Assembly: GCA_015490555.1 (NCBI GenBank)
Contig: WFXO01000006.1
Span: 1 to 61,355 of the forward strand
DNA: 61,355 bases
Source of the DNA: a candidate division WOR-3 bacterium
Lineage (GTDB): Bacteria; Hydrothermota; Hydrothermia; WGAB01
Reading direction: 5' to 3'
Shown here: positions 41,549-51,070 of the stretch, piece after piece
Numbering within the stretch: position 1 is the first letter of the stretch
Layout of the letters: the number at the start of each line of letters is the position of its first letter
Notes under the pieces: model-generated
Databases searched by the model: none
Told to the model about the DNA's origin: nothing
The model's input: only the letters and a program-made list of their open reading frames with translations
Program-made: the position numbers and the translations under genes

Positions 41549-42478
41549 TCAGCCAGAGGCCGAAACCGTTGCCTCTTCAGGGAGAGAACCGTGGGTCTCC
41601 TGGTGCCTTTTCAGCAATTTTTCCCACTCGTGGTCTACAAAACGCTGGATGTAATCGACCTGTTCCTCCGTCAGATGCCGGAACCGGCCCTGCATTTTCA
41701 GGTAGTCCAAAACCGGACGGCCTTCCGGCCAGTAGTTGATGGTCCACCGTTCACCGTCCTCGATCTCAAACAAGGGGAAGACTTTGGTCTCTACAGCCAT
41801 ACGAGCAACCTTGATCGATTGATCGGAGGCGATTTTCCATCCCGGTGGACATGGGGACAAGATGTGGATAAACCGAGTGCCTTGAATCTCCTTGGCTTTG
41901 AGGAACTTCCGGACAAGGTCGTCCGGGAACGCAATGGTTGCGGTCGCGACATACGGGATCCGATGGGCAGACATGATCTCCACGATGTTCTTCTTGGGTC
42001 GCTCTTCGGGGTGTTTGACCGGGGTGGTCGTGGTCCACGCACCGTATGGGGTCGCACCGGACCGTTGGATGCCCGTGTTCATGTAGGCCTCGTTGTCATA
42101 CACGACATAGATGATGTTTTCGTTCCGCTCGGCAGCCCCGGAGAGGGCCTGGATCCCGATGTCGAAGGTTCCACCATCCCCGGCCCACGCTAAAACCGTA
42201 ACATCTTTTTCGCCTTTCACATCCAGAGCCGCGCGGATCCCCGAGGCCGCAATCGCAGCCGTCTCAAAGGCAGTATGGAACATGGGGATCTTCAAGGCGT
42301 GATTGGGCCAGGCCCCATCAATGATGGTCCAACAACAGGCAGGGACCGTAATCATCGTCTTGGGCCCCAAGGCTTTCAAAGCCAAACGCATGGCCACGGT
42401 CGCGCCACAGCCCTGGCACGCGAGATGGCCAGGATTCATCCACTCCTCGCGATTGACCTCTTTCCAATACCAACTCAT
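41549..42478 (-). CDS. porB: 2-oxoacid (pyruvate/ketoisovalerate):ferredoxin oxidoreductase beta subunit
   Basis: GH.AC.GC, TPP motif GDG...DNEAYMNTG.QRS, SPCP.GW. Confidence 0.93.
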   Translation of the reverse strand: MSWYWKEVNREEWMNPGHLACQGCGATVAMRLALKALGPKTMITVPACCWTIIDGAWPNHALKIPMFHTAFETAAIAASGIRAALDVKGEKDVTVLAWAGDGGTFDIGIQALSGAAERNENIIYVVYDNEAYMNTGIQRSGATPYGAWTTTTPVKHPEERPKKNIVEIMSAHRIPYVATATIAFPDDLVRKFLKAKEIQGTRFIHILSPCPPGWKIASDQSIKVARMAVETKVFPLFEIEDGERWTINYWPEGRPVLDYLKMQGRFRHLTEEQVDYIQRFVDHEWEKLLKRHQETHGSLPEEATVSASG

Positions 42479-43647
42479 AATCGGACTCCTTTCCAAATGA
42501 TTTCCTGAGGTTCGGTTCGGGACCTCAGGTCTTCGTAAATCGCTTCGATGTCTTCCGCCCGAATGTCGCGTCCACCCAAGCCGGTCACATAGCCGAAGAG
42601 GAGGGGAGCACCGGATTGTCCATAGAGGGCACTCTTGATCTCCTGGTAGAAAATTCCGTGATGTCCATAAGAGAGATTTCGATCGATGATCCCCACCTTT
42701 TTCCGACCTCTCAAAGCCTGCCGAATGTCCTCGAACGGGAACGGCCGGAACATCCGGAGTTTCAGGAGACCGACCTTGTGCCCCTTCTCCCGGAGTTTCT
42801 GGACTGCATAACGTGCCGTCGAGGTTGTGGAACCTGCGGTAACCAGTACTTCCTCGGCATCTTCCAGCATAAAAGGCTCCAACGTGTCGTAGGTCCGGCC
42901 AAAGAGTTCTCCAAACCGTTGTCCCTCTTCTTTAAACACCTGTATGGCACGTTCATGGGCCTTCTGGAGTTTGTATCGAAACTCGAAGTAGACCTGTGGA
43001 TCTGCCAGACCGCCAATGACTTGCGGGTTGTCAAAGTTCAGGGCATAAGGATTTTGATAGGGGGGAAGGAACGCATCTACCACCTCCTGGGGATAGATCT
43101 CCACCGGCTCAGAGGTGTGGGACAGAATGAACGCATCCAGCACAATCATCATCGGCAGAAGCACCTGCTCGGCGACTTTGTACCCCAAGATCACGAAGTC
43201 GAGGGCCTCCTGGTTTGATTCCGCATAGAGTTGCATCCATCCGGTATCTCGTTGGCTCAAGGAATCGTTTTGGTCCGTCCAGATGGACCAGGGGGCAGCC
43301 AAGGCGCGGTTGACGTTGGCCATCACAATGGGAGCGCGGACCCCTGCGGCCCAGTGGAGCATTTCGTGCATGAGCGCCAATCCCTGGGAAGACGTCGCGG
43401 TAAACGCACGGGCCCCAGCAATGGAGGCCGAAATGCACCCCGCCATGGCCGAATGCTCGGACTCCACCGTGATGAACCGGGCCTTCAAGTCCCCCTCCGC
43501 CACCATCTCAGAAAGCAATTCTACGATCGTGGTCTGCGGGGTGATGGGATACGCAGCAATGACCTCGACTCGAGCGAGTTTTGCCCCGTAGGAAACCGCA
43601 TGGTTCCCCGTAATGACTTTCATTTCGCTTTTTTCCAGGACCTTCAT
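42475..43647 (-). CDS. porA: 2-oxoacid:ferredoxin oxidoreductase alpha subunit
   Basis: YPITPQT, ESEHSA, TATSSQGL, RPFP, GLGGRD. Confidence 0.94.
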   Translation of the reverse strand: MKVLEKSEMKVITGNHAVSYGAKLARVEVIAAYPITPQTTIVELLSEMVAEGDLKARFITVESEHSAMAGCISASIAGARAFTATSSQGLALMHEMLHWAAGVRAPIVMANVNRALAAPWSIWTDQNDSLSQRDTGWMQLYAESNQEALDFVILGYKVAEQVLLPMMIVLDAFILSHTSEPVEIYPQEVVDAFLPPYQNPYALNFDNPQVIGGLADPQVYFEFRYKLQKAHERAIQVFKEEGQRFGELFGRTYDTLEPFMLEDAEEVLVTAGSTTSTARYAVQKLREKGHKVGLLKLRMFRPFPFEDIRQALRGRKKVGIIDRNLSYGHHGIFYQEIKSALYGQSGAPLLFGYVTGLGGRDIRAEDIEAIYEDLRSRTEPQEIIWKGVRL

Positions 43648-43657
43648 GGCAACCTCC

Positions 43658-45340
43658 TCAAAACAGCCGTTCCTGTTCCATGTCTATGACACCCCGCGGG
43701 CACTCTGCTGAGCAAATCCCGCAACCTTTACAGTAGTCGTAGTTGATCTGTGGCTTGTTGTCTACCCACTCAACCGCCGCATCGGGACAGAAGACATAGC
43801 AGTTGCCACAACTGTTACATGTCCCGCAGAGGAAGCACCGCTGGACTTCTTGCAAGGCCAATTCCTTGTTAAACCCAAGGATTTCTTCCCGATCGTAGGC
43901 TCTAATTCGTTCTTCTACCGGGAGTTCAGGGACCGCGACGCGCGGCTTCTTTTGGAAATATTCCATCTGGATCAAGAGGAAGGACACGGTCTTTGGCAGG
44001 GGCTGGGGTTGGAGTTCCTCGCCCATGACATAGGCGTGGATATGCTCCGAGGCTCGACGGGCCCAACCGATGGCTTCGACGACCGTCGCCGGTCCACTCA
44101 CCACATCCCCACCCGCAAAGAGCCCCGGGATCGCGGTCTTCCCGGTCTTCTTGTCAGCCACCAACCAGCCGTGGTCATCCAGCACTTCCTTTGGGAGGAA
44201 CGACGTGTCGACATATTCTCCAATGGCTGTGATGACGGCATCGTATTCCTCCTCAAACTCGGAGCCTTCGATGGGGACCGGACGCCGACGGCCTGACCGG
44301 TCCGGCTCCCCCAACTGCATTTTGACACAAGTTAAGACGATCTTGCCGTTTTTCTTTTCTGCTTTGATGGGTTGCGTAAGATACTGGAATTCGATCCCGT
44401 CCTCGATAGCACGCTCAATTTCTTCCTCTAAGGCTGGCATTTCCTTGCGAGTCCGACGATACAGGAGGACGGGCTCCGCCCCCAACCGGAGGAGTGTCCG
44501 GATCACATCCATCGCCACGTTCCCCCCTCCCACAACGGCGACCTTTTTGCCGGGAGGGGTCCGATTCCCCTCGTTGACATGCCGGAGAAACTCCACGCCG
44601 GACATCAGGTATTCGTCACCCGGAATGCCCATCCGCCGTTCCAGATGCGCGCCATATCCCAGGAAAACGGCATCATAGGTCTGTAGAAGTTCTTCGATGG
44701 AGATATCTTTGCCAACCTTCGTTTGATACCGGAATTCCACTCCCATCCGTTCCAGCGCCTGAAGTTCGCGGTCTACAATCTCACTGGGCAACCGGTACTC
44801 CGGAATACCATATCGAAGGACGCCGCCGCCCTTGGGGTCTTTTTCGAACACCACGACCCGATGCCCTTTCTGGCGGAGGTAGTAGGCAGCGGTCATGCCT
44901 GCAGGGCCACTTCCCACCACAGCAATGGTCTTTCCGGTTTCTTTTGCCGGGGGTTGGCCCTTTTTGTCCAGGATATAGTCCCCCACGAAGCGCTCGATTT
45001 CACGAATGGAGATGGCCTCGTCGAACCGTTTCCGGTTACAGGCCCGCTCGCAGGGATGAGGACACACCCGCCCCGTGATCGAAGGGATCGGATTGTGCTT
45101 CAACAGGACCTGTCCGGCCGCATCCAGATCCCCCCGTTCCAAAAACTGATAGAAATATTGGGGGATCAACGTATTCGTTGGGCAGGCCTTGGAACAGGGA
45201 CCGTACTTTTCCTGATCATGGATGACCGGCCGCAGGTTCCGCCAGGAGCCGGTTTTTACCCCTCGGGTGTCCCGAAACGAAACGGTCACTTCCGGAAACT
45301 CATCTGCGGTCCACTCATAGGGATTTCCGTTCTTTTTCAT
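43658..45340 (-). CDS. PorD-derived ferredoxin fused to GltD/NfnB-like FAD/NAD(P) oxidoreductase
   Basis: KTGSWR..RPVI N-terminus; C..ACP, GRVCPHPCE..C; GSGPAG; YGIP.YRL; GGGNVA; YRR; RCFLC; C-terminal 2x[4Fe-4S] (YDYCKGCGIC..ECP). Confidence 0.88.
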   Translation of the reverse strand: MKKNGNPYEWTADEFPEVTVSFRDTRGVKTGSWRNLRPVIHDQEKYGPCSKACPTNTLIPQYFYQFLERGDLDAAGQVLLKHNPIPSITGRVCPHPCERACNRKRFDEAISIREIERFVGDYILDKKGQPPAKETGKTIAVVGSGPAGMTAAYYLRQKGHRVVVFEKDPKGGGVLRYGIPEYRLPSEIVDRELQALERMGVEFRYQTKVGKDISIEELLQTYDAVFLGYGAHLERRMGIPGDEYLMSGVEFLRHVNEGNRTPPGKKVAVVGGGNVAMDVIRTLLRLGAEPVLLYRRTRKEMPALEEEIERAIEDGIEFQYLTQPIKAEKKNGKIVLTCVKMQLGEPDRSGRRRPVPIEGSEFEEEYDAVITAIGEYVDTSFLPKEVLDDHGWLVADKKTGKTAIPGLFAGGDVVSGPATVVEAIGWARRASEHIHAYVMGEELQPQPLPKTVSFLLIQMEYFQKKPRVAVPELPVEERIRAYDREEILGFNKELALQEVQRCFLCGTCNSCGNCYVFCPDAAVEWVDNKPQINYDYCKGCGICSAECPRGVIDMEQERLF

Positions 45341-45906
45341 GGTGTCACCTCCTGTGGCAAGATGACAGATTCATATGCCTCTTGGGCGGCTTTGGCGTTG
45401 TTTTCGGGGTCCATCGGAACTCCCTCACGGATTGCTTCGAGGAGAGCGTCCAGAGATAGGAGCCCGGTGGCACGCACAAAGGCCCCGAGGATCGCCGTGT
45501 TGACAATCGGTGCGGTCGGTTTCCCGAGTTTGTGCTTGATCGCAATCTGGTTGGCATCCACGGTCGCGACTCGATAGGAATCCGGGATTTCCAGCGTGTC
45601 CGGGTGATCCGGGGTGTTCACGATCACCCATCCGCCCTCCTTCAGGCCTTCCAGGACGTTCACGGCCTGAAGAAGGGTGGGATCCAGGACCACGATGTGG
45701 TCTGGATGGTGGATAAAGGATCGAACGAAAAGGGTGTCTTGAGACCCGACGCGAAGGAACGCCGTGACAGGCGCACCCCGTCGTTCAACCCCGAACTGTG
45801 GGAAAGCCTGGACATATTTCCCCTCCCGAAAAAATGCATCCGCAAGGATCTTCGAAGCCACAACTGTCCCCTGTCCACCTCGTCCATGAAACCGAATCTC
45901 AATCAA
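45337..45906 (-). CDS. porG: 2-oxoacid:ferredoxin oxidoreductase gamma subunit
   Basis: EIRFHGRGGQG, FG.ERRGAPV, NT.ILGA; TTG start after AAGGAGGTG. Confidence 0.94.
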   Translation of the reverse strand: MIEIRFHGRGGQGTVVASKILADAFFREGKYVQAFPQFGVERRGAPVTAFLRVGSQDTLFVRSFIHHPDHIVVLDPTLLQAVNVLEGLKEGGWVIVNTPDHPDTLEIPDSYRVATVDANQIAIKHKLGKPTAPIVNTAILGAFVRATGLLSLDALLEAIREGVPMDPENNAKAAQEAYESVILPQEVTP

Positions 45907-46062
45907 GGTGACACCTCCTTTTTGGCTGGCCCCAAATCTTTTTGCTTTCCAAAATTTTAAGGGAAAATAGAGGTATCCAAAATTCGTTTTTCCTTAGAAA
46001 ACTGCTCAACTTTGTGGATCTTCGCCGTCCTGTGTTTTTGCGATGCTGTACAATGTTTTCGC

Positions 46063-48741
46063 ATGATTCACGGAAAGATTGGGCGATATGAAGTCTTGGC
46101 CTGGCGGGGCGGGGGCCAGTTCGCCGATGTCTTCCTCGTGAAGGACCCCCTGACCGAAACCCAATACGCCCTCAAACTCTCCCGCGCAAAACGCAAAACC
46201 TCAGAATCCTTTCTCCAGGAAGCCAGGATCCTGGCAAGCCTCAACCATCCGAATATTGTGCGTTTTTATACCGTAGACTTCTATCAGGATCGGCTCTTCA
46301 TTCTCCTGGAATACATCGAGGGGAAAAGCCTACGGGAGATCATTCAAGAACGGGCCCCCTTATCACAAGACGAAGCCCTTCGGATTGCCCTGGAGATCTT
46401 AGACGCACTGGCATATGCACACGCCAAGGGAGTTCTCCATCGGGACCTCAAACCCGAAAACATCCTTCTGACGCCCGATATGACGGTGAAGATCACGGAT
46501 TTTGGCCTCTCTGCCCTCATCTCGGGCAACGTCTTGGAGGCCTCTGTTGCGGGGACCCCGCTTTACATGGCACCAGAGGTCTGGGAAGGCCGATTCTCTC
46601 CTGCCTCAGATCTGTGGGCCTTTTCGGCCATCCTCTACGAGATGCTGGCCGGACATGCCCCCTTCTTTGCCGAGACCTTAGAACAGGTCCGTGCGAAAAT
46701 CCTTACAGGACGAATCCCGAAGATCCACGGGATCCGCCCCGAACTCATGCGGATCCTCCGGAGAGGGCTCCACCCTAACCCCCGCTCCCGGTATGCGTCC
46801 GCCGAGGATTTCCGAAAAGATTTAGAAGCACTGTTCAAAAAGAAAGGGAAGGTTTTCGGGCCGATCGAGATCAAACGATCCGGTCCCAGAGATCTCCTCG
46901 AATCGCTTACTGAAGAACAACGCACGGCCGTCACTCACGGCGATGGAATCACGTTGGTCCTGGGAGGCCCGGGCACGGGGAAGACGACCACCTTAATTGC
47001 CCGTGCGGTCTACCTGATCCGCGAGAGAGGAGTGGATCCTGAAACCCTTTGGATTTGTACCTTTACCGGCCGGGGTGTGTTTGATCTTCAGGAGCGCTTC
47101 ACGCGACACCTCGGCAAAGAGGTCGTGGACGCCCTTTGGTTAGGGACCTACCACACACTGGCCATGCGAATCGTGGCCTTCGCCGGTGAACGGTATGGGA
47201 TCCCGGAAGATTTCACCGTGATCAATGAGTCTCGGCAATATGACTACCTGCGAAAGGCTGCCCGGACGTCCAACACGACCCGGCTCCGCGCCATGATGAA
47301 AACGATTTCGTTCTTTAAGGCCAACCTCATGTCCCCAAAAGAGATCCTGACGTCTGGTGCCAGCCGGTGGGAACAAGAAGTTGCGGAAGTCTATCTGCGG
47401 TATCAGTCCCTTCTCCGGGAGGACGGAGTCCTTGACTTTGGAGACCTCCTTTTGATCGCGAACCAGGTATTGAGGGATTACGACGACATTCGAGAGACCC
47501 TGGCGGGCCGGTTCCGTTTTGTCCTGGCCGATGAATTCCAGGATGTGGACTTCGCGCAATACCAACTTCTGAAGCAGGTTGCATCGGTCCATCACAATCT
47601 CTTCGTGACAGGCGACGACGATCAGGCGATTTATGGCTTCCGAGGAGCAAGCCCGAAATTCATGGAAGACCTCTTGAAGGAGTTCCCGGACGCTCAGGTC
47701 TTCCACCTCACCCAGAATTTCCGAACGCCCGAAGACATCCTGGACCTGGCGACGAACCTGATCTCTCGCAATACCCATCGTTTCCAAAAGGTGATCTATG
47801 CTCGAAACCCTTCACGAAACTCGGTGATCTTCCACATCGCCCGGAATGAACGGGATGAGGCTCAATTTGTGGCACAAAAAATCATCGAGCACCATGAAGA
47901 AGGGTATGCCTTTGACGACATGGCGGTCTTTTATCGGGTGCACTCCCGATCCCGACTCTTCGAAGAAGTGTTCCGGATCTATAAGATTCCATATAACATT
48001 GTGGGGGCATCCTCCTTCTTCCAGCGCCCCGAAGTCCGGGCAGCGCTCGCTGTGTTGAGGCTTCTGGTCGGGCCCATCCCTCGGGCCGAGATGCAGAGGA
48101 TCCTCCAGCATTTCACGGATCTTACCGCCCAGGAAATTCGTAACGTCTTGAAGTCTTGGGATAAGCGGCAAAAGCCGACCTTCTCCCGGACCCTTCCTCC
48201 GGCAAAACGGGAAAGCCTGAAGAACCTCTGGGCGCTCGTCCAGGAATTGCGCGATATGGTGCGTCTCCGGTCGCCTTATGACCTCCTTCAAACCTTCTTC
48301 GAACAAACTGGGTTCTGGAAAATCCTTACTGAGAGCGAAATGACACCGCTGGTACACGAGCGAGAAAACCTCCAAGAACTCTTGGCCATGGCCAGCGATT
48401 TTGGGAAAGATGGGGTTCGAGACTTCCTGAACTATGTGCAAATCCTGGAGTCTTTTGGGGCAGAGCGGTCTGGGACAGGAGGCGTCCGATTGATGACGGT
48501 CCATTCCGCGAAGGGGACGGAGTTCCCCATCGTGTTCTTGGTTGGACTGGAGAAAAACTCGTTTCCATTGCGCGGGAGCCTGGTCCGAAAGCAAGATCTG
48601 GAGGAGGAGCGGCGGCTCTTTTATGTGGCCATGACCCGTGCCCAGGAGCGGCTCTACCTCACCTATGCCCGATCGCGTCAGCACACCTCCCAGGAAGCCT
48701 CCCCTTTCCTCAACGAGTTGCTGATGAAGACACCCACATAA
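46063..48741 (+). CDS. Hanks-type Ser/Thr protein kinase fused to UvrD/PcrA-type SF1A DNA helicase
   Basis: Kinase: GGGQFADV, ALK, FLQEA, HRDLKPEN, DFG, GTPLYMAPE, SDLW. Helicase: Q motif, GPGTGKT, TFT, DEFQD, GDDDQAIYGFRGA, NFR, TVHSAKG.EF, EEERRLFYVAMTRA. One continuous ORF. Confidence 0.93.
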   Translation: MIHGKIGRYEVLAWRGGGQFADVFLVKDPLTETQYALKLSRAKRKTSESFLQEARILASLNHPNIVRFYTVDFYQDRLFILLEYIEGKSLREIIQERAPLSQDEALRIALEILDALAYAHAKGVLHRDLKPENILLTPDMTVKITDFGLSALISGNVLEASVAGTPLYMAPEVWEGRFSPASDLWAFSAILYEMLAGHAPFFAETLEQVRAKILTGRIPKIHGIRPELMRILRRGLHPNPRSRYASAEDFRKDLEALFKKKGKVFGPIEIKRSGPRDLLESLTEEQRTAVTHGDGITLVLGGPGTGKTTTLIARAVYLIRERGVDPETLWICTFTGRGVFDLQERFTRHLGKEVVDALWLGTYHTLAMRIVAFAGERYGIPEDFTVINESRQYDYLRKAARTSNTTRLRAMMKTISFFKANLMSPKEILTSGASRWEQEVAEVYLRYQSLLREDGVLDFGDLLLIANQVLRDYDDIRETLAGRFRFVLADEFQDVDFAQYQLLKQVASVHHNLFVTGDDDQAIYGFRGASPKFMEDLLKEFPDAQVFHLTQNFRTPEDILDLATNLISRNTHRFQKVIYARNPSRNSVIFHIARNERDEAQFVAQKIIEHHEEGYAFDDMAVFYRVHSRSRLFEEVFRIYKIPYNIVGASSFFQRPEVRAALAVLRLLVGPIPRAEMQRILQHFTDLTAQEIRNVLKSWDKRQKPTFSRTLPPAKRESLKNLWALVQELRDMVRLRSPYDLLQTFFEQTGFWKILTESEMTPLVHERENLQELLAMASDFGKDGVRDFLNYVQILESFGAERSGTGGVRLMTVHSAKGTEFPIVFLVGLEKNSFPLRGSLVRKQDLEEERRLFYVAMTRAQERLYLTYARSRQHTSQEASPFLNELLMKTPT

Positions 48742-48827
48742 CTGTGAGAGTTCCAGACATAAGGATTCCCAACTCGCAGGAAATCAAGGTAAAAGAGTCC
48801 TGCCCAAAGCATTCTTCATTACACAAC

Positions 48828-48856
48828 TTGACAAATTTGAGATTGAGGTGTATTGT
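48828..48856 (+). promoter_or_regulatory. Putative sigma70 promoter
   Basis: TTGACA-17 bp-TATTGT, then GGAGG SD and ATG 48881. Confidence 0.65.
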
Positions 48857-48880
48857 TGCACTGTAACGCGGAGGTTCAGG

Positions 48881-51070
48881 ATGGTAGGAGGTCGTCTCTA
48901 TCCATTAAAGTCTTTGGTGATTGTCTGTGTCCTCTTTGGAATCGGGTGGGGACAGTATGTCTTTCTCGATGGCGAGTTTTTACGGGATATCTCTCCGATC
49001 CGAAAGATCGTCCTTTCGCCAACCTTTGAGACCGACAGTGTGATCGCCGTGGCCGGTGAAGACGGCTGGATGCTGACAAAATTGCCCCATGGCCCATTGG
49101 AAACTTTTTATACCGGGGAACCGGTCCAGGACCTTGTCTTTGAGGGTCAGCGTCTCCTCCTTTTGACCGCATCTTCCTTACAGATGTTCCGGATTGACGA
49201 GGATGCAGCCCATTGGGTGGTGTCTCGAATCGATTCTATGTCTTACGGTGGGATTCGTCTGATCCCCTTCAGACCCTTCACCGCCCCAGATCTCCCTCCT
49301 GCGTATCTTTTAGCCCGAGGGCAAAATGGAACGGATCTCCTGGTTTGGGATACCACTGCAGGATTTGTCGTAGACAACCATTATGATTTTCCGACGTTTG
49401 ATCTTGCACTCTACAGGGGCGATCTCGTAGTCGCAGCTGGCGAGCAAGGCACTTATCTTGTGGACCCTCAGCCTTCTGGAGGAGCAATTATTGGTCATAT
49501 CGCCCCTTCTTATACTCTTCCCAATCATCAGAAGGTCCACGTCCTCCAGCATTACGCATTGATCACGGGGATAGACATCCATCCACCTTTTTACCCCTTA
49601 CAGGCATTTGACATCCAGGAACCTGAGTCCCCGCACCTTGTCATGACATTCCCGACCTTCCAACTTTCATGGCCGATCATCTCTAAAATTGACTCCTTTT
49701 TCTGTGTGGTTGGCAGTGCTCAAGAGCCAAATGCGACATTTGCGTTTCGGCTATACCGGATCACAGGAGGTGATTCGATCGTCCAGGTCTATGAGACACC
49801 GATTTCCCCGGTAACCACCGCCATCCTTCGTTCGCCCACACAAGTGATATGGAGTGACAACAGGACGGTCTACTTCGGGAAACCGGGACGACCTGGCCAC
49901 CGCTGGTTCGCGGTTCCTCAATCCATTCAACATGTCCAAGGGGTTTCGGGAGGCATCCTGGCCATGGATGTGAACGGCCAACTTTATTACGGTGCAACCT
50001 ATACCACGTGGGGCCCCTACCCGACGTTGTCCAGTTTCACAAAGAGTGTGATACACCTCCCTGAGCCCCCCGTCTCAGTAACCCCCCTCCGGACATCGAT
50101 AGGCAATGGATTTCTCCTTTTAGACGCGGAAGGTGGCTTAAATCTGTATGCCATCCTGAACTCTCAGGAATTGCAATGGGTCTCCCGTCCTTTTGACTTT
50201 CCACAAGCGTACGGGCCAATCGCAGGGGATACTGAAGGACGCGCATATCTTGCAACGGATGGCCATACCGTCACGGTGATGAGCCTCTGGGAAATAGAAC
50301 AACCAGAGATTTTAGCAACGGTGACCTTTTCGGATAGTATTGTCGCACTGGCCGGTATCCAGACTTTTTTGGGCGTTGGTTTTGCAAATGGAACCATCAA
50401 AGTCTTCTCCTGGACGGACCCTTCCTCCCCTCAACCCCTTTTGGTTGTGCAAAAGAATGCCCATATCCTGGACATCGATTACCACTTCGATGGCTACAAC
50501 GCACCCTATGGAAATGCATTGGCTGTGCTCTTCGATGACGCTTCAGTTTTATGGATTGGACAGCGTTACAATGGGGAAATCGATACCTTTTCCTTTACCT
50601 TTCCTGTTCAGCCGATCGCTTGTTCCTATGGAAACGATTGGATCGGGGCGGCCGCCGGTGAAGCAGGCTATTACATGTCCTGGTGGGGCGAGGATTGGTT
50701 TTACCCGGCACACGGGAACGCATTAGACGTCGATATCCAAGGGGTACAAAGTTATGTAGCAATGGGTCCTTTTGGAGTGGCTTCTCTGACAGGCATTGTG
50801 AAGAGCCAGGAAGAAGATTTTCAGAGTCCTGGATCGATTCGCCTGGCATCTCCGATCGTCCGAAGTCAGGTGATTCTTCAGGGGGATCTTGAACCCGGTG
50901 TCATTGAAATCTTTGATGTCGCAGGCCGGCGGATGATCCAGTGGACCCTCACAAGACCTCAATCCTCTGTCACCATTCGAATTGCCTCCTGGCCCACCGG
51001 GGTCTATTTGCTCCGATATTCCGGCCATCACTCACCCCCGATCACCCAGAAATTCCTCAAAATCCAGTAA
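48881..51070 (+). CDS. Secreted beta-propeller (LVIVD-like repeat) protein with T9SS-type C-terminal domain
   Basis: Signal peptide; VAAGEQG, FDIQEPESP, WTDPSSP, AAAGEAG, YVAMG repeats; IFDVAGR...PTGVYLL...QKFLKIQ C-terminus. Confidence 0.75.
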   Translation: MVGGRLYPLKSLVIVCVLFGIGWGQYVFLDGEFLRDISPIRKIVLSPTFETDSVIAVAGEDGWMLTKLPHGPLETFYTGEPVQDLVFEGQRLLLLTASSLQMFRIDEDAAHWVVSRIDSMSYGGIRLIPFRPFTAPDLPPAYLLARGQNGTDLLVWDTTAGFVVDNHYDFPTFDLALYRGDLVVAAGEQGTYLVDPQPSGGAIIGHIAPSYTLPNHQKVHVLQHYALITGIDIHPPFYPLQAFDIQEPESPHLVMTFPTFQLSWPIISKIDSFFCVVGSAQEPNATFAFRLYRITGGDSIVQVYETPISPVTTAILRSPTQVIWSDNRTVYFGKPGRPGHRWFAVPQSIQHVQGVSGGILAMDVNGQLYYGATYTTWGPYPTLSSFTKSVIHLPEPPVSVTPLRTSIGNGFLLLDAEGGLNLYAILNSQELQWVSRPFDFPQAYGPIAGDTEGRAYLATDGHTVTVMSLWEIEQPEILATVTFSDSIVALAGIQTFLGVGFANGTIKVFSWTDPSSPQPLLVVQKNAHILDIDYHFDGYNAPYGNALAVLFDDASVLWIGQRYNGEIDTFSFTFPVQPIACSYGNDWIGAAAGEAGYYMSWWGEDWFYPAHGNALDVDIQGVQSYVAMGPFGVASLTGIVKSQEEDFQSPGSIRLASPIVRSQVILQGDLEPGVIEIFDVAGRRMIQWTLTRPQSSVTIRIASWPTGVYLLRYSGHHSPPITQKFLKIQ

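What the first reader, a model, noticed from the sequence alone, without database searches (positions are those of the whole stretch)
46063..48741. Standalone Ser/Thr kinase-UvrD/PcrA helicase fusion: candidate DNA-sensing kinase
Seen: one uninterrupted ORF (~890 aa) has an N-terminal Hanks kinase with all catalytic motifs (Gly loop, Lys/Glu pair, HRDLKPEN, DFG, APE). A short basic linker (KKKGK) joins it to an SF1A helicase with motifs Q and I-VI intact. There is no TM segment and no PASTA/FHA/TPR sensor, and it stops soon after motif VI. It looks monocistronic: divergent from por, with the next gene under its own promoter. Established: PcrA/UvrD normally lack a kinase and carry a C-terminal Tudor-like domain that binds RNAP/UvrB, which is missing here. 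Hanks kinases act in antiphage systems (PglW, Stk2), and UvrD-like helicases do too (Gabija GajB). Inference: the helicase may be the kinase's sensor, coupling ssDNA/fork binding to phosphorylation as a single-gene DNA-damage checkpoint or abortive-infection switch; alternatively the kinase regulates the helicase. This is my best candidate for an undescribed system.
Basis: partly seen in the sequence, partly recalled or inferred. Interest (0 to 1): 0.82.

Follow-up and report, generated by a model that had tools for sequence, protein, structure and literature searches.

The report
Kinase–DNA helicase fusion with ARPP partner
One intact gene joins a protein kinase to a UvrD/PcrA-type DNA motor; the fusion is conserved in an uncultured hydrothermal-vent phylum, is inherited together with a little-known gene (ARPP-1), and has not been studied.

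Summary
Window 46063-48741 (+) encodes an 892-aa protein: a Pkinase domain (aa 16-246), a variable linker, then UvrD-helicase plus UvrD_C (aa 282-870). The catalytic residues of both halves are invariant in 87 homologues. Contigs from three studies bridge the domain junction without indels.

It is not a one-off. The fusion is in 79 of 201 sampled genomes of its phylum, named WOR-3/Hydrothermota where sources give a name. It looks vertically inherited and comes in addition to a canonical UvrD/PcrA.

It is not standalone at family level. It is co-inherited with one clade of ARPP-1 (PF20208, "type A"). That gene lies next to it in 30 genomes of other classes and is unlinked here, on contig C74. 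A structure model with controls supports ARPP-A docking on the kinase N-lobe (ipSAE 0.61, best control 0.00). The contact residues are specific to this clade.

Flanking genes are housekeeping, with no defence or mobile context. Six literature searches found nothing on the fusion.

The scan reached the same reading on three other genomes. The docking model and a second, Acidobacteriota clade without the ARPP link are new here. The function is inferred: a DNA-tracking phospho-signalling module.

The parts
46063..48741 (+). Whole kinase-helicase gene (892 aa plus stop)
   Evidence: The ATG start agrees with homologue N-termini.
46108..46800 (+). Hanks-type Ser/Thr kinase domain (aa 16-246). The N-lobe residues W14, G17, D22, L25 and R41 lie at or just upstream of its start.
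   Evidence: Pfam Pkinase 5.1e-54. Catalytic residues invariant in 87 of 87. N-lobe signature.
46846..46887 (+). Flexible, non-conserved linker (aa 262-275)
   Evidence: AF2 pLDDT below 50 for 262-275. Mean pairwise identity 0.14.
46906..47688 (+). UvrD-helicase N-terminal domain (aa 282-542; Walker A, DExQD)
   Evidence: Pfam 9.1e-63, invariant residues, Foldseek match to UvrD/PcrA.
47701..48672 (+). UvrD_C domain (aa 547-870), including a variable 2B subdomain. No C-terminal tail follows.
   Evidence: Pfam 1.5e-56. 2B mean pairwise identity 0.23; tail of 26-46 aa in all 87.
45907..46062 (.). Divergent intergenic region between POR gamma (-) and the fusion gene (+)
   Evidence: No promoter-like site was scored here.
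48742..48881 (.). Downstream intergenic region with a promoter-like site at 48828-48856. In strains of another study, 73 bases here are replaced by 1436 others.

Best explanation
Shown.
- The gene encodes a two-enzyme protein: a Hanks-type Ser/Thr kinase tethered by a flexible linker to a UvrD/PcrA-type SF1A DNA motor that lacks the usual C-terminal partner-docking tail.
- It belongs to an uncharacterised family that looks vertically inherited within one uncultured phylum (WOR-3/Hydrothermota where named). It is kept in addition to a canonical UvrD/PcrA.
- It is co-inherited with one clade of the novel-fold protein ARPP-1 (type A). That gene is adjacent in other classes and unlinked in this genome.

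Inferred.
- The helicase half loads on single-stranded or branched DNA and moves along it.
- ARPP-A sits on the kinase N-lobe, at the glycine-loop hairpin, as a regulatory or sensor subunit.
- A DNA-borne cue (a lesion, a sugar modification such as an abasic or ADP-ribosylated site, or a stalled complex) switches the kinase on.
- The kinase then phosphorylates itself, ARPP-A or neighbouring DNA-bound proteins.

On this reading it is a chromosomal genome-maintenance signalling module, not a mobile defence system.
For: Both halves are intact and under selection.
- Domains. Invariant catalytic residues in 87 homologues.
- Of the 32 in-gene strain differences listed, 30 fall at third codon positions by my count (60 more rows were not shown).

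Distribution and descent.
- The fusion is in 79 of 201 sampled genomes of the phylum (my hand count rows that start in the kinase).
- 66 of those 79 also have a second, helicase-only match at E <= 1e-60.
- Identity falls with taxonomic distance: 81% in the same genus, 48-49% in the same family, about 41% in the same class.
- All 6 multi-member families are monophyletic in a 22-row tree.

ARPP link.
- PF20208 is in 94 of 201 of the same genomes. My cross-tabulation: both 75, fusion only 4, ARPP only 19, neither 103.
- The two genes are adjacent on the same strand in 30 genomes.
- The ARPP tree splits type A (24 rows: all adjacent copies plus the unlinked copies of fusion genomes, G000 included) from type B (22 rows) with SH-aLRT 100.
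- Of 13 ARPP-only genomes fetched, 12 hold type B only.

Docking model.
- ipSAE 0.61 against a best control of 0.00. That mark was reached by 58 of 80 solved complexes and 2 of 110 mismatched pairs.
- The three runs share at least 93% of their contacts. Partner pLDDT is at least 87.
- No like complex can have been remembered: the ARPP-A model (pLDDT 93.6) has 0 PDB matches at E <= 0.001.

Interface residues are clade-specific.
- In the family: W14 85/87, G17 85/87, D22 85/87, L25 83/87, R41 84/87.
- In 75 generic Hanks kinases: D at position 22 in 7, R at position 41 in 12, and W not among the five commonest residues at position 14.
- The ARPP motif E-P-F-F-L-R-N is type-A specific.
- Acidobacteriota fusions, which lack the ARPP operon, carry the generic residues: W14 to P in 9 of 12, G17 to A in 12 of 12, R41 to P in 10 of 12.

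Context.
- Immediate neighbours are POR subunits, GNAT, GT4, GltX, peptidases and transporters.
- The fusion is the only Pkinase hit in this genome. No PP2C_2 or FHA was found at 94% completeness.
Against: - No functional data exist for any member.
- The only published context for ARPP is predicted virus-host conflict systems (PMC9503650, passages read).
- The module was not found in 122 of 201 sampled genomes, so it is dispensable.
- It diverges faster than the canonical UvrD/PcrA: 48-49% against 63-64% identity within the family.
- The Acidobacteriota clade lacks a tight ARPP link. None of 12 loci has ARPP within 1.5 kb. ARPP of any type is in 27 of 34 fusion genomes against 76 of 167 others. 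ARPP is therefore not required by every kinase-UvrD fusion.
- The docking is a model only. It used my own alignments, so the calibration holds only roughly. The helicase half was not tested against ARPP.
- The two lineages compared are only two independent points.
- AF2 gives no fixed kinase-helicase arrangement (pTM 0.60).
Confidence: 0.45

Rival explanations
1. Antiphage or abortive-infection system. The helicase senses phage replication intermediates. The kinase phosphorylates host or phage proteins to stop infection, with ARPP-A as co-sensor or effector.
For: - Domain-level PADLOC hits: GajB 291 bits, mad6 244, PD-T4-6 217.
- ARPP was first described in predicted anti-viral ARG systems (PMC9503650, passages).
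- The distribution is patchy and the two genes are lost together.
- It evolves faster than the canonical paralogue, and its 2B subdomain is variable.
Against: - It scores far under the curated cut-offs: Mad6 167 against 460, PglW 96.5 against 990.
- No GajA, BREX or MADS genes, integrases or other defence genes are among the 7 window neighbours and 10 neighbours in other loci that I scanned.
- There is no conserved neighbourhood beyond ARPP in 20 loci.
- It is single-copy and family-congruent in the tree.
- Base composition around the gene is even.
Confidence: 0.2
2. Cis-regulation only. The kinase is a regulatory appendage that switches its own helicase on or off by autophosphorylation, in response to a cellular signal relayed by ARPP-A (for example a nucleotide or ADP-ribose derivative). 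DNA is not the kinase's signal.
For: - The activation segment is rich in conserved Ser/Thr: T165 87/87, S161 77/87.
- ARPP is predicted to dock at the ATP-binding N-lobe, a regulatory rather than a substrate position.
- Unlinked type-A ARPP genes lie near Nudix, CdaA or RelA/SpoT genes in some families.
Against: - The kinase domain is the most conserved long part of the protein (0.51 mean pairwise identity against 0.37-0.39 for the helicase 1A/1B and 2A-N segments). That fits an output role at least as well as a regulatory one.
- The Nudix, CdaA and RelA neighbours differ between families, so they may be chance.
Confidence: 0.2
3. Transcription-linked role. Like PcrA/UvrD on RNA polymerase, the motor works at stalled transcription complexes or R-loops. 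The kinase replaces the missing C-terminal RNAP-binding tail as the contact and modifier module.
For: - The C-terminal tail is missing in all 87 members, while the core is closest to UvrD/PcrA.
- That the PcrA/UvrD tail binds RNAP or UvrB is recalled knowledge, not tested here.
Against: No evidence here links the protein to RNA polymerase. A canonical UvrD/PcrA of 647-719 aa is retained in the genomes checked.
Confidence: 0.1
4. Assembly artefact: a mis-join of a kinase gene and a helicase gene.
For: None found.
Against: - Contigs from three studies bridge the junction.
- The same fusion stands in one open frame in 79 of 201 genomes of the phylum and 34 of 201 genomes of an Acidobacteriota class.
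Confidence: 0.01

Closest known systems
PcrA / UvrD / Rep (SF1A 3'-5' DNA helicases; PDB 4c2t/4c2u D. radiodurans UvrD, 1pjr PcrA, 2is1 E. coli UvrD, 9dci M. tuberculosis UvrD1, 1uaa Rep)
   Same: The helicase half matches these by sequence (4.6e-93 to 3.1e-78) and by fold (TM 0.71-0.74 normalised to the target). All core motif residues are kept.
   Different: It has an N-terminal kinase and no C-terminal tail: the PcrA model is matched only over positions 1-631 of 725. It scores under half the equivalog cut-offs (457 against 911). It is a paralogue beside a canonical copy.
PknB / StkP / Stk1-type bacterial Hanks kinases
   Same: It has the kinase fold and all catalytic residues. The best solved matches are StkP (4e-42) and PknB.
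   Different: It has no membrane anchor or PASTA domains (NF033483: 209 against a cut-off of 450). It has a clade-specific N-lobe surface (W14, G17, D22, L25, R41). It is fused to a DNA motor.
ARG-centred ARPP systems and ARPP two-gene neighbourhoods (Iyer, Burroughs, Anantharaman, Aravind 2022, PMC9503650; passages read)
   Same: The partner gene is a PF20208 ARPP-1 with the invariant Cys, Glu, Gln, Arg and Trp core. One published ARPP partner, HIRAN, is also DNA-binding.
   Different: The paper does not hold the word UvrD (0 occurrences), and none of the kinase passages shown links a kinase to ARPP. I saw no ARG or rhodanese-phosphatase gene among the type-A neighbours that I scanned. The paper's supplements were not readable, so a listing there cannot be excluded.
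Defence kinases and helicases: Gabija GajB, BREX PglW, MADS Mad6, PD-T4-6/Stk2-like kinases
   Same: The domains are shared, and PADLOC models hit at domain level.
   Different: It scores far under the curated cut-offs. The companion genes of those systems were not seen next to it. Its inheritance looks vertical.
Eukaryotic DNA-activated checkpoint kinases (DNA-PK, ATR) and the SMG1-UPF1 kinase/SF1-helicase pair (recalled; analogy only)
   Same: The logic proposed is the same: a nucleic-acid-bound module controls or positions a protein kinase.
   Different: The kinase family is unrelated (PIKK against Hanks) and there is no homology. Here the two activities are in one polypeptide.

Membership tests
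SF1A UvrD/PcrA/Rep helicases | UvrD-helicase and UvrD_C domains above Pfam gathering scores | tested here: met
   212.9 bits (cut-off 23) and 192.7 bits (cut-off 25.6)
SF1A UvrD/PcrA/Rep helicases | Conserved ATPase and translocation motif residues (Walker A, DExQ, arginine fingers and others) | tested here: met
   Invariant in 87 of 87 homologues and in 12 of 12 Acidobacteriota fusions
SF1A UvrD/PcrA/Rep helicases | Four-subdomain fold like solved UvrD/PcrA | tested here: met
   AF2 pLDDT 88.7. Foldseek match to 4c2t_B with TM 0.73 normalised to the target, E 2e-46.
PcrA / UvrD / Rep orthologues (NCBIfam equivalogs) | Score above the curated equivalog cut-off, with the full-length match including the C-terminal region | tested here: not met
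   pcrA 457 against 911, uvrD 396 against 1144, rep 398 against 951. Matched model positions 1-631 of 725. Tail of 26-46 aa only.
SF1A UvrD/PcrA/Rep helicases | DNA-dependent ATPase and 3'-5' unwinding activity | not testable with these tools
   Needs purified protein
Hanks-type Ser/Thr protein kinases | Pkinase domain above the cut-off, with catalytic Lys/Glu, HRD, DFG and APE residues | tested here: met
   183.9 bits against a cut-off of 31.7. K38, E53, D128, N133, D146 and E172 invariant.
Stk1/PknB PASTA kinases | Transmembrane segment and PASTA repeats; equivalog score | tested here: not met
   NF033483 209 against 450. The match covers the kinase domain only. No PASTA in Pfam.
Gabija (GajA/GajB) | GajB-type helicase encoded next to a GajA nuclease/ATPase | tested here: not met
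   The GajB models hit at domain level, but neighbours are POR subunits, an unknown 740-aa ORF, GNAT and GT4
BREX PglW / MADS Mad6 kinases | Equivalog score, and the other genes of the system nearby | tested here: not met
   PglW 96.5 against 990, Mad6 167 against 460. None of the 7 neighbours scanned belongs to those systems.
ARPP-1-linked kinase-UvrD module (the family defined here and in three earlier scan findings) | A type-A ARPP-1 gene in the same genome, orthologous to the copies that lie next to the fusion elsewhere | tested here: met
   G000:C74 ARPP-1, 257 bits. It falls in the type-A clade, SH-aLRT 100.
ARPP-1-linked kinase-UvrD module (the family defined here and in three earlier scan findings) | Kinase N-lobe signature W14/G17/D22/L25/R41 | tested here: met
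   The window protein has W14, G17, D22, L25 and R41
ARPP-1-linked kinase-UvrD module (the family defined here and in three earlier scan findings) | Physical binding of ARPP-A to the fusion | tested here: inconclusive
   The model supports binding (ipSAE 0.61, best control 0.00). It does not show it.
ARG-centred ARPP conflict systems | ARPP next to ADP-ribosylglycohydrolase and/or rhodanese-phosphatase genes | tested here: not met
   Type-A neighbours scanned are ABC permeases, GT, CdaA, Nudix, OTCase, RelA/SpoT and an epimerase. Not every neighbour was scanned.

The most novel reading that the evidence does not exclude
A previously unknown tripartite DNA-surveillance machine. ARPP-A is a novel-fold protein with an invariant Cys/Glu/Gln/Arg/Trp core. 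In this reading it recognises or covalently traps a damaged or modified DNA sugar (an abasic or ADP-ribosylated site). It rides on the N-lobe of a Hanks kinase that a UvrD-type motor carries along DNA. Lesion encounter is then turned directly into protein phosphorylation. This would be a bacterial, single-operon counterpart of the eukaryotic DNA-damage checkpoint kinases. Kinase-helicase fusion would be a recurrent bacterial solution: there is a second clade in Acidobacteriota, and the Atlas lists other kinase plus SF1/SF2 helicase architectures.
Probability: 0.22. Interest if true: 0.85.

Novelty: new variant of a known kind. Interest (0 to 1): 0.64.

Why it matters
Bacterial Hanks kinases are almost always wired to membrane or ligand sensors. 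A kinase permanently tethered to a DNA motor would be a direct way to turn events on DNA into phosphorylation, which has no described bacterial example that I could find.

The family is conserved and small enough to express. It comes with a predicted partner of unknown fold whose only published reading is a guess: action on ribose or sugar moieties.

The predicted interface gives concrete point mutants to test. The Acidobacteriota clade offers a natural ARPP-independent comparison.

In the window's own family the fusion is the only Hanks kinase in the genome. Whatever it phosphorylates may therefore be all of that organism's Hanks-type Ser/Thr phosphorylation.

Tried and rejected
- Genome-contig scan with the family alignment. 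It used generic kinase patterns and returned only ordinary kinases. None of its 80 loci holds a helicase or ARPP match. I reused 75 of them as a background set.
- ARPP-A fused to longer proteins. None was found among proteins of 533-2000 aa. The tool itself calls this weak evidence.
- RNA evidence. No RNA holder was listed, so nothing can be said on expression.
- Five Acidobacteriota genomes reached through loci. No fusion was found in 0 of 5. One of them, G201, is flagged unpublished, and only this null count includes it.
- Search of earlier scan findings by sequence and by complex-related words. Nothing was found.
- First fusion tree. It picked wrong ORFs in several loci and was discarded. 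The redo dropped 8 of 30 loci because my motif filter missed them.
- Conserved-neighbour search around the fusion, around unlinked type-A ARPP and around Acidobacteriota fusions. Nothing is conserved beyond close relatives, apart from ARPP-A itself.
- Promoter and terminator scan. Counts are at chance level and no terminator-like site lies on the + strand after the gene.
- Mis-assembly, rejected.
- The basic linker as a conserved DNA-binding patch, rejected: the linker is variable.
- ARPP against the helicase half, and the full-length pair, could not be folded together.
Full report
**1. The observation**

The ORF list gives one open frame at 46012..48741 on the + strand. The ATG at 46063 gives 892 residues. 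Homologues begin at the same place (M in 73 of 87 at position 1).

Pfam finds Pkinase (aa 16-246, 5.1e-54), UvrD-helicase (aa 282-542, 9.1e-63) and UvrD_C (aa 547-870, 1.5e-56). It finds no sensor domain.

In an alignment of 87 full-length homologues (A1) the catalytic residues of both halves are invariant:
- Kinase: K38, E53, H126/D128/K130/N133, D146-F-G, T165, E172.
- Helicase: G304/G306/K307, D490-E-x-Q-D494, Q521/R527, R554, H814/K817/G818, R859.

Every member ends 26-46 residues after R859. The PcrA model is matched only over positions 1-631 of 725. The C-terminal tail of PcrA/UvrD is therefore absent family-wide.

The KKKGK stretch exists here, but the linker is the least conserved part (0.14 mean pairwise identity). 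AF2 models it as disordered (pLDDT below 50 for 262-275). Overall pLDDT is 88.7 and pTM 0.60: the domains are confident, but there is no fixed arrangement between them.

A mis-join is excluded. Contigs of four runs from three studies bridge 46800-46920:
- X2 record 2, 45873-47441
- X4 record 10, 45856-48731
- X7 record 17, 46357-47760
- X8 record 25, 46545-46943

No insertions or deletions are listed. Of the 32 in-gene differences shown, 30 fall at third codon positions by my count (60 further rows were not shown).

**2. Surroundings in the window**

Upstream and divergent is a POR cluster: gamma at 45337-45906, a Pyr_redox_2/Fer4 gene at 43658-45340, alpha at 42475-43647 and beta at 41549-42496.

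Downstream are a 740-aa ORF without any Pfam family, a GNAT/FemAB-like gene and a GT4 glycosyltransferase. Base composition is even.

A promoter-like site lies at 48828-48856 before the next gene, but one site is what shuffles give. In two runs of another study, the 73 bases after the gene's end are replaced by 1436 other letters. The downstream gene is therefore not a fixed partner.

**3. The family**

A word-indexed search of 5.8 billion proteins gave 111 clusters (P0002-P0112) with the fused architecture. They cover the query fully at 30-55% identity. Where sources give names, these are candidate division WOR-3, Hydrothermia/Hydrothermota, one "Synergistetes" MAG and one Blastocatellia.

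In 201 sampled genomes of the window's phylum, 79 hold a match that starts in the kinase and runs on in one frame (my hand count). Of these, 66 also have a separate helicase-only match at E <= 1e-60.

This genome has a canonical UvrD/PcrA on contig C14. It is 577 aa, cut by the contig end, and scores 274 bits on UvrD-helicase.

| Comparison with G000 | Fusion identity | Canonical UvrD/PcrA identity |
|---|---|---|
| Same genus | 81% | 88% |
| Same family | 48-49% | 63-64% |
| Same class | 41% | 48% |
| Same phylum | about 37% | 42% |

 Descent looks vertical, with somewhat faster divergence than the canonical copy. In a FastTree of 22 fusions, all 6 families with more than one member are monophyletic. 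The window's class forms one clade (8 of 30 loci were dropped by my motif filter).

**4. The partner**

I clustered ORFs in about 20-kb stretches centred on the fusion (up to about 10 kb each side) in 20 genomes. Nothing was conserved except one gene, on the same strand and directly beside the fusion, in 7 of 20. It is ARPP-1, PF20208 (1e-62 to 2e-67).

This genome has one ARPP-1 on another contig, G000:C74, at 257 bits.

Across the same 201 genomes PF20208 is found in 94. My cross-tabulation:

| | ARPP-1 found | ARPP-1 not found |
|---|---|---|
| Fusion found | 75 | 4 (G178, G150, G192, G115) |
| Fusion not found | 19 | 103 |

In 30 genomes the two genes are on the same strand within 500 bases. 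All 30 lie outside the window's class. Inside that class the genes are unlinked, for example 63 kb apart in G053.

A tree of 46 ARPP sequences splits them with SH-aLRT 100 (quick method, the careful search did not finish):
- Type A: 24 rows of about 290-310 aa. These are all 7 adjacent copies plus 17 unlinked ones, including this genome's.
- Type B: 22 rows of 315-425 aa with an N-terminal extension.

Of 13 ARPP-only genomes that I fetched, 12 hold type B only. One, G155, holds a type A at a contig edge. The 6 other ARPP-only genomes have weak or partial matches and were not fetched. Type B lies next to TonB_C or PTS-EIIA genes.

Type-A ARPP and the fusion are thus kept together and lost together at the level of whole families. 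Kin are not independent, so this is a pattern and not a statistic.

The one paper on ARPP that I could read (PMC9503650, passages) describes a domain of unknown fold with conserved Cys and Gln. Its authors guess that it acts on ribose or sugar moieties. They report it beside ARG, rhodanese-phosphatases, HIRAN, WYL or a deacetylase. The paper has no occurrence of "UvrD".

**5. Do they touch?**

I folded the kinase domain (A1, residues 1-262) with ARPP-A (A2, 22 sequences).
- ipSAE was 0.62, 0.61 and 0.61 in three runs. The best of three controls was 0.00.
- That mark was reached by 58 of 80 solved complexes and 2 of 110 mismatched pairs.
- The runs share at least 93% of contacts and partner pLDDT is at least 87.
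- The counts hold only roughly, because my own alignments were used.

The model supports binding. It does not show it.

The interface:
- Kinase residues 1-4, 11-17, 19, 22, 25 and 41, which form the N-lobe beta1-beta3 hairpin around the glycine loop.
- ARPP residues 13-19, 21, 184, 187-190, 238-239 and 241-244.

A remembered complex is unlikely. The ARPP-A model is confident (pLDDT 93.6, pTM 0.93) and has no PDB match at E <= 0.001.

Three checks on the contact residues:

(a) They are conserved in the family: W14 85/87, G16 83/87, G17 85/87, D22 85/87, L25 83/87, R41 84/87.

(b) They are unusual for Hanks kinases. Among 75 generic kinase domains, D at position 22 occurs in 7 and R at position 41 in 12. 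W is not among the five commonest residues at position 14, and position 17 is mostly A, R or E.

(c) The ARPP motif E-P-F-F-L-R-N (13-19) is type-A specific. Type B has K/N-P-I-x-Y-K-N there. The putative catalytic core (G73, E74, Q81, R83, C103, E105, R108, W109, R127, Q148, W152, G198) is invariant in both types.

**6. A natural comparison**

The protein atlas lists two clusters with Pkinase plus UvrD-helicase whose commonest phylum is Acidobacteriota. It also lists other kinase-helicase architectures: Pkinase with AAA_11/AAA_12, with Viral_helicase1 and with Helicase_C_2. Their scores are under 0.9, so they are leads only.

In 201 genomes of the class of G204 (that genome's record is titled Pyrinomonadales):
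- 34 hold a full-length fusion of about 960-990 aa.
- None of 12 loci has ARPP within 1.5 kb.
- PF20208 of any type is in 27 of the 34, against 76 of the 167 others. That count includes G335, which is flagged unpublished.
- Their ARPPs are B-like or lack the type-A motif.
- No neighbour is conserved.

These fusions keep all catalytic residues (12 of 12) but carry the generic N-lobe: W14 to P in 9 of 12, G17 to A in 12 of 12, D22 to A in 10 of 12, L25 to K in 12 of 12, R41 to P in 10 of 12.

The special N-lobe surface therefore goes with the ARPP-A partnership. This rests on two lineages only.

**7. Signalling context**

In this genome (94% complete) the fusion is the only Pkinase match. No PP2C_2 or FHA match was found. 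All five genomes of the window's family have exactly one Pkinase match. Elsewhere in the phylum there are 1-7 per genome.

The kinase domain is the most conserved long part of the protein (0.51 mean pairwise identity). Helicase 1A/1B is at 0.39 and 2B at 0.23.

**8. Reading**

Shown:
- A real, selected, bifunctional kinase-SF1A helicase.
- A paralogue of a retained canonical UvrD/PcrA.
- Vertical inheritance and housekeeping surroundings.
- Co-inheritance with ARPP-A.

Supported by a model: ARPP-A docks on the kinase N-lobe.

Inferred: the motor positions the kinase on DNA, and ARPP-A gates or informs it. The output is phosphorylation of itself or of DNA-bound proteins, in genome maintenance (confidence 0.45).

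Rivals:
- A defence system (0.2).
- Pure cis-regulation of the helicase (0.2).
- A transcription-linked role (0.1).
- An artefact (0.01).

**9. Novelty**

Six full-text searches found no paper on this fusion, on DUF6569/PF20208 function, or on kinases in WOR-3. Subscription journals and the supplements of PMC9503650 were not searchable.

The scan itself had reached the same core reading on three other genomes (e1-4619286, e1-3158812, e1-4563040). I saw these after I had found the ARPP link independently.

New here:
- The controlled docking model and its clade-specific interface.
- The type A/type B split of ARPP.
- The ARPP-independent Acidobacteriota clade.

I file it as a new variant of known kinds (a Hanks kinase and an SF1A helicase) with an undescribed partner. 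Interest is 0.64.

Noticed in passing
window 48731-48805: In contigs of two runs of another study (X4, X7), the 73 bases just after the fusion gene's end are replaced by 1436 other letters. This is a strain-level insertion between the fusion and the next gene.
   Followed up: no
window 48848-51070 (+): A 740-aa ORF with no Pfam family. It is not found next to the fusion in the 20 other loci examined. The likely true start is the ATG at 48882, after a GGAGG.
   Followed up: partly
window 41549-45906 (-): A POR cluster with a 560-aa Pyr_redox_2 + Fer4_20 + 4Fe-4S dicluster gene (43658-45340) set between the gamma (45337-45906) and alpha (42475-43647) subunit genes. This is an unusual flavin/NAD(P)-type subunit inside a pyruvate:ferredoxin oxidoreductase operon.
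   Followed up: no
L155, L156, L158, L165, L181 (TonB_C); L146, L152, L154, L160 (PTS_EIIA_2): A second ARPP-1 clade (type B, 315-425 aa with an N-terminal extension) lies directly after a TonB_C-domain gene in 5 loci and before a PTS EIIA-2 gene in 4 loci of one family.
   Followed up: partly
L192-L203 (genomes G232, G267, G350 and others): A second clade of kinase-UvrD fusions (about 960-990 aa) is in 34 of 201 genomes of an Acidobacteriota class. It has no adjacent ARPP and no conserved neighbour, and its kinase N-lobe is generic. Whether it shares a fused ancestor with the WOR-3 clade is open.
   Followed up: partly
protein atlas clusters: The Atlas lists other bacterial kinase-helicase architectures: Pkinase + AAA_11/AAA_12 (clusters of 83 and 473 members), Pkinase + Viral_helicase1 (90) and Pkinase + Helicase_C_2 (181). 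Fusing a kinase to a helicase may be a recurrent theme. Scores are under 0.9, so these are leads only.
   Followed up: no
G150:C27:5710-8379 (L017): This genome's fusion carries one in-frame TAG, no ARPP-1 was found in the genome, and the fusion scores much higher against the window's protein than those of its family mates do (810 bits against 547-592). This may be a decaying copy or a binning problem.
   Followed up: no
G204:C11:25998-27929 (L187): A helicase-only protein (693-aa open frame) in a fusion-less Acidobacteriota genome matches the helicase half of the Acidobacteriota fusion at 39% identity and 458 bits. That is well above the other helicase-only matches of that search (about 300-320 bits). 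It may be an unfused relative.
   Followed up: no
L170-L172, L179; L173, L177, L178; L175, L176: In the window's class the unlinked type-A ARPP gene lies beside nucleotide-signalling or nucleotide-processing genes in several families: Nudix, CdaA (DAC) and RelA/SpoT. The neighbour differs between families, so it may be chance.
   Followed up: partly
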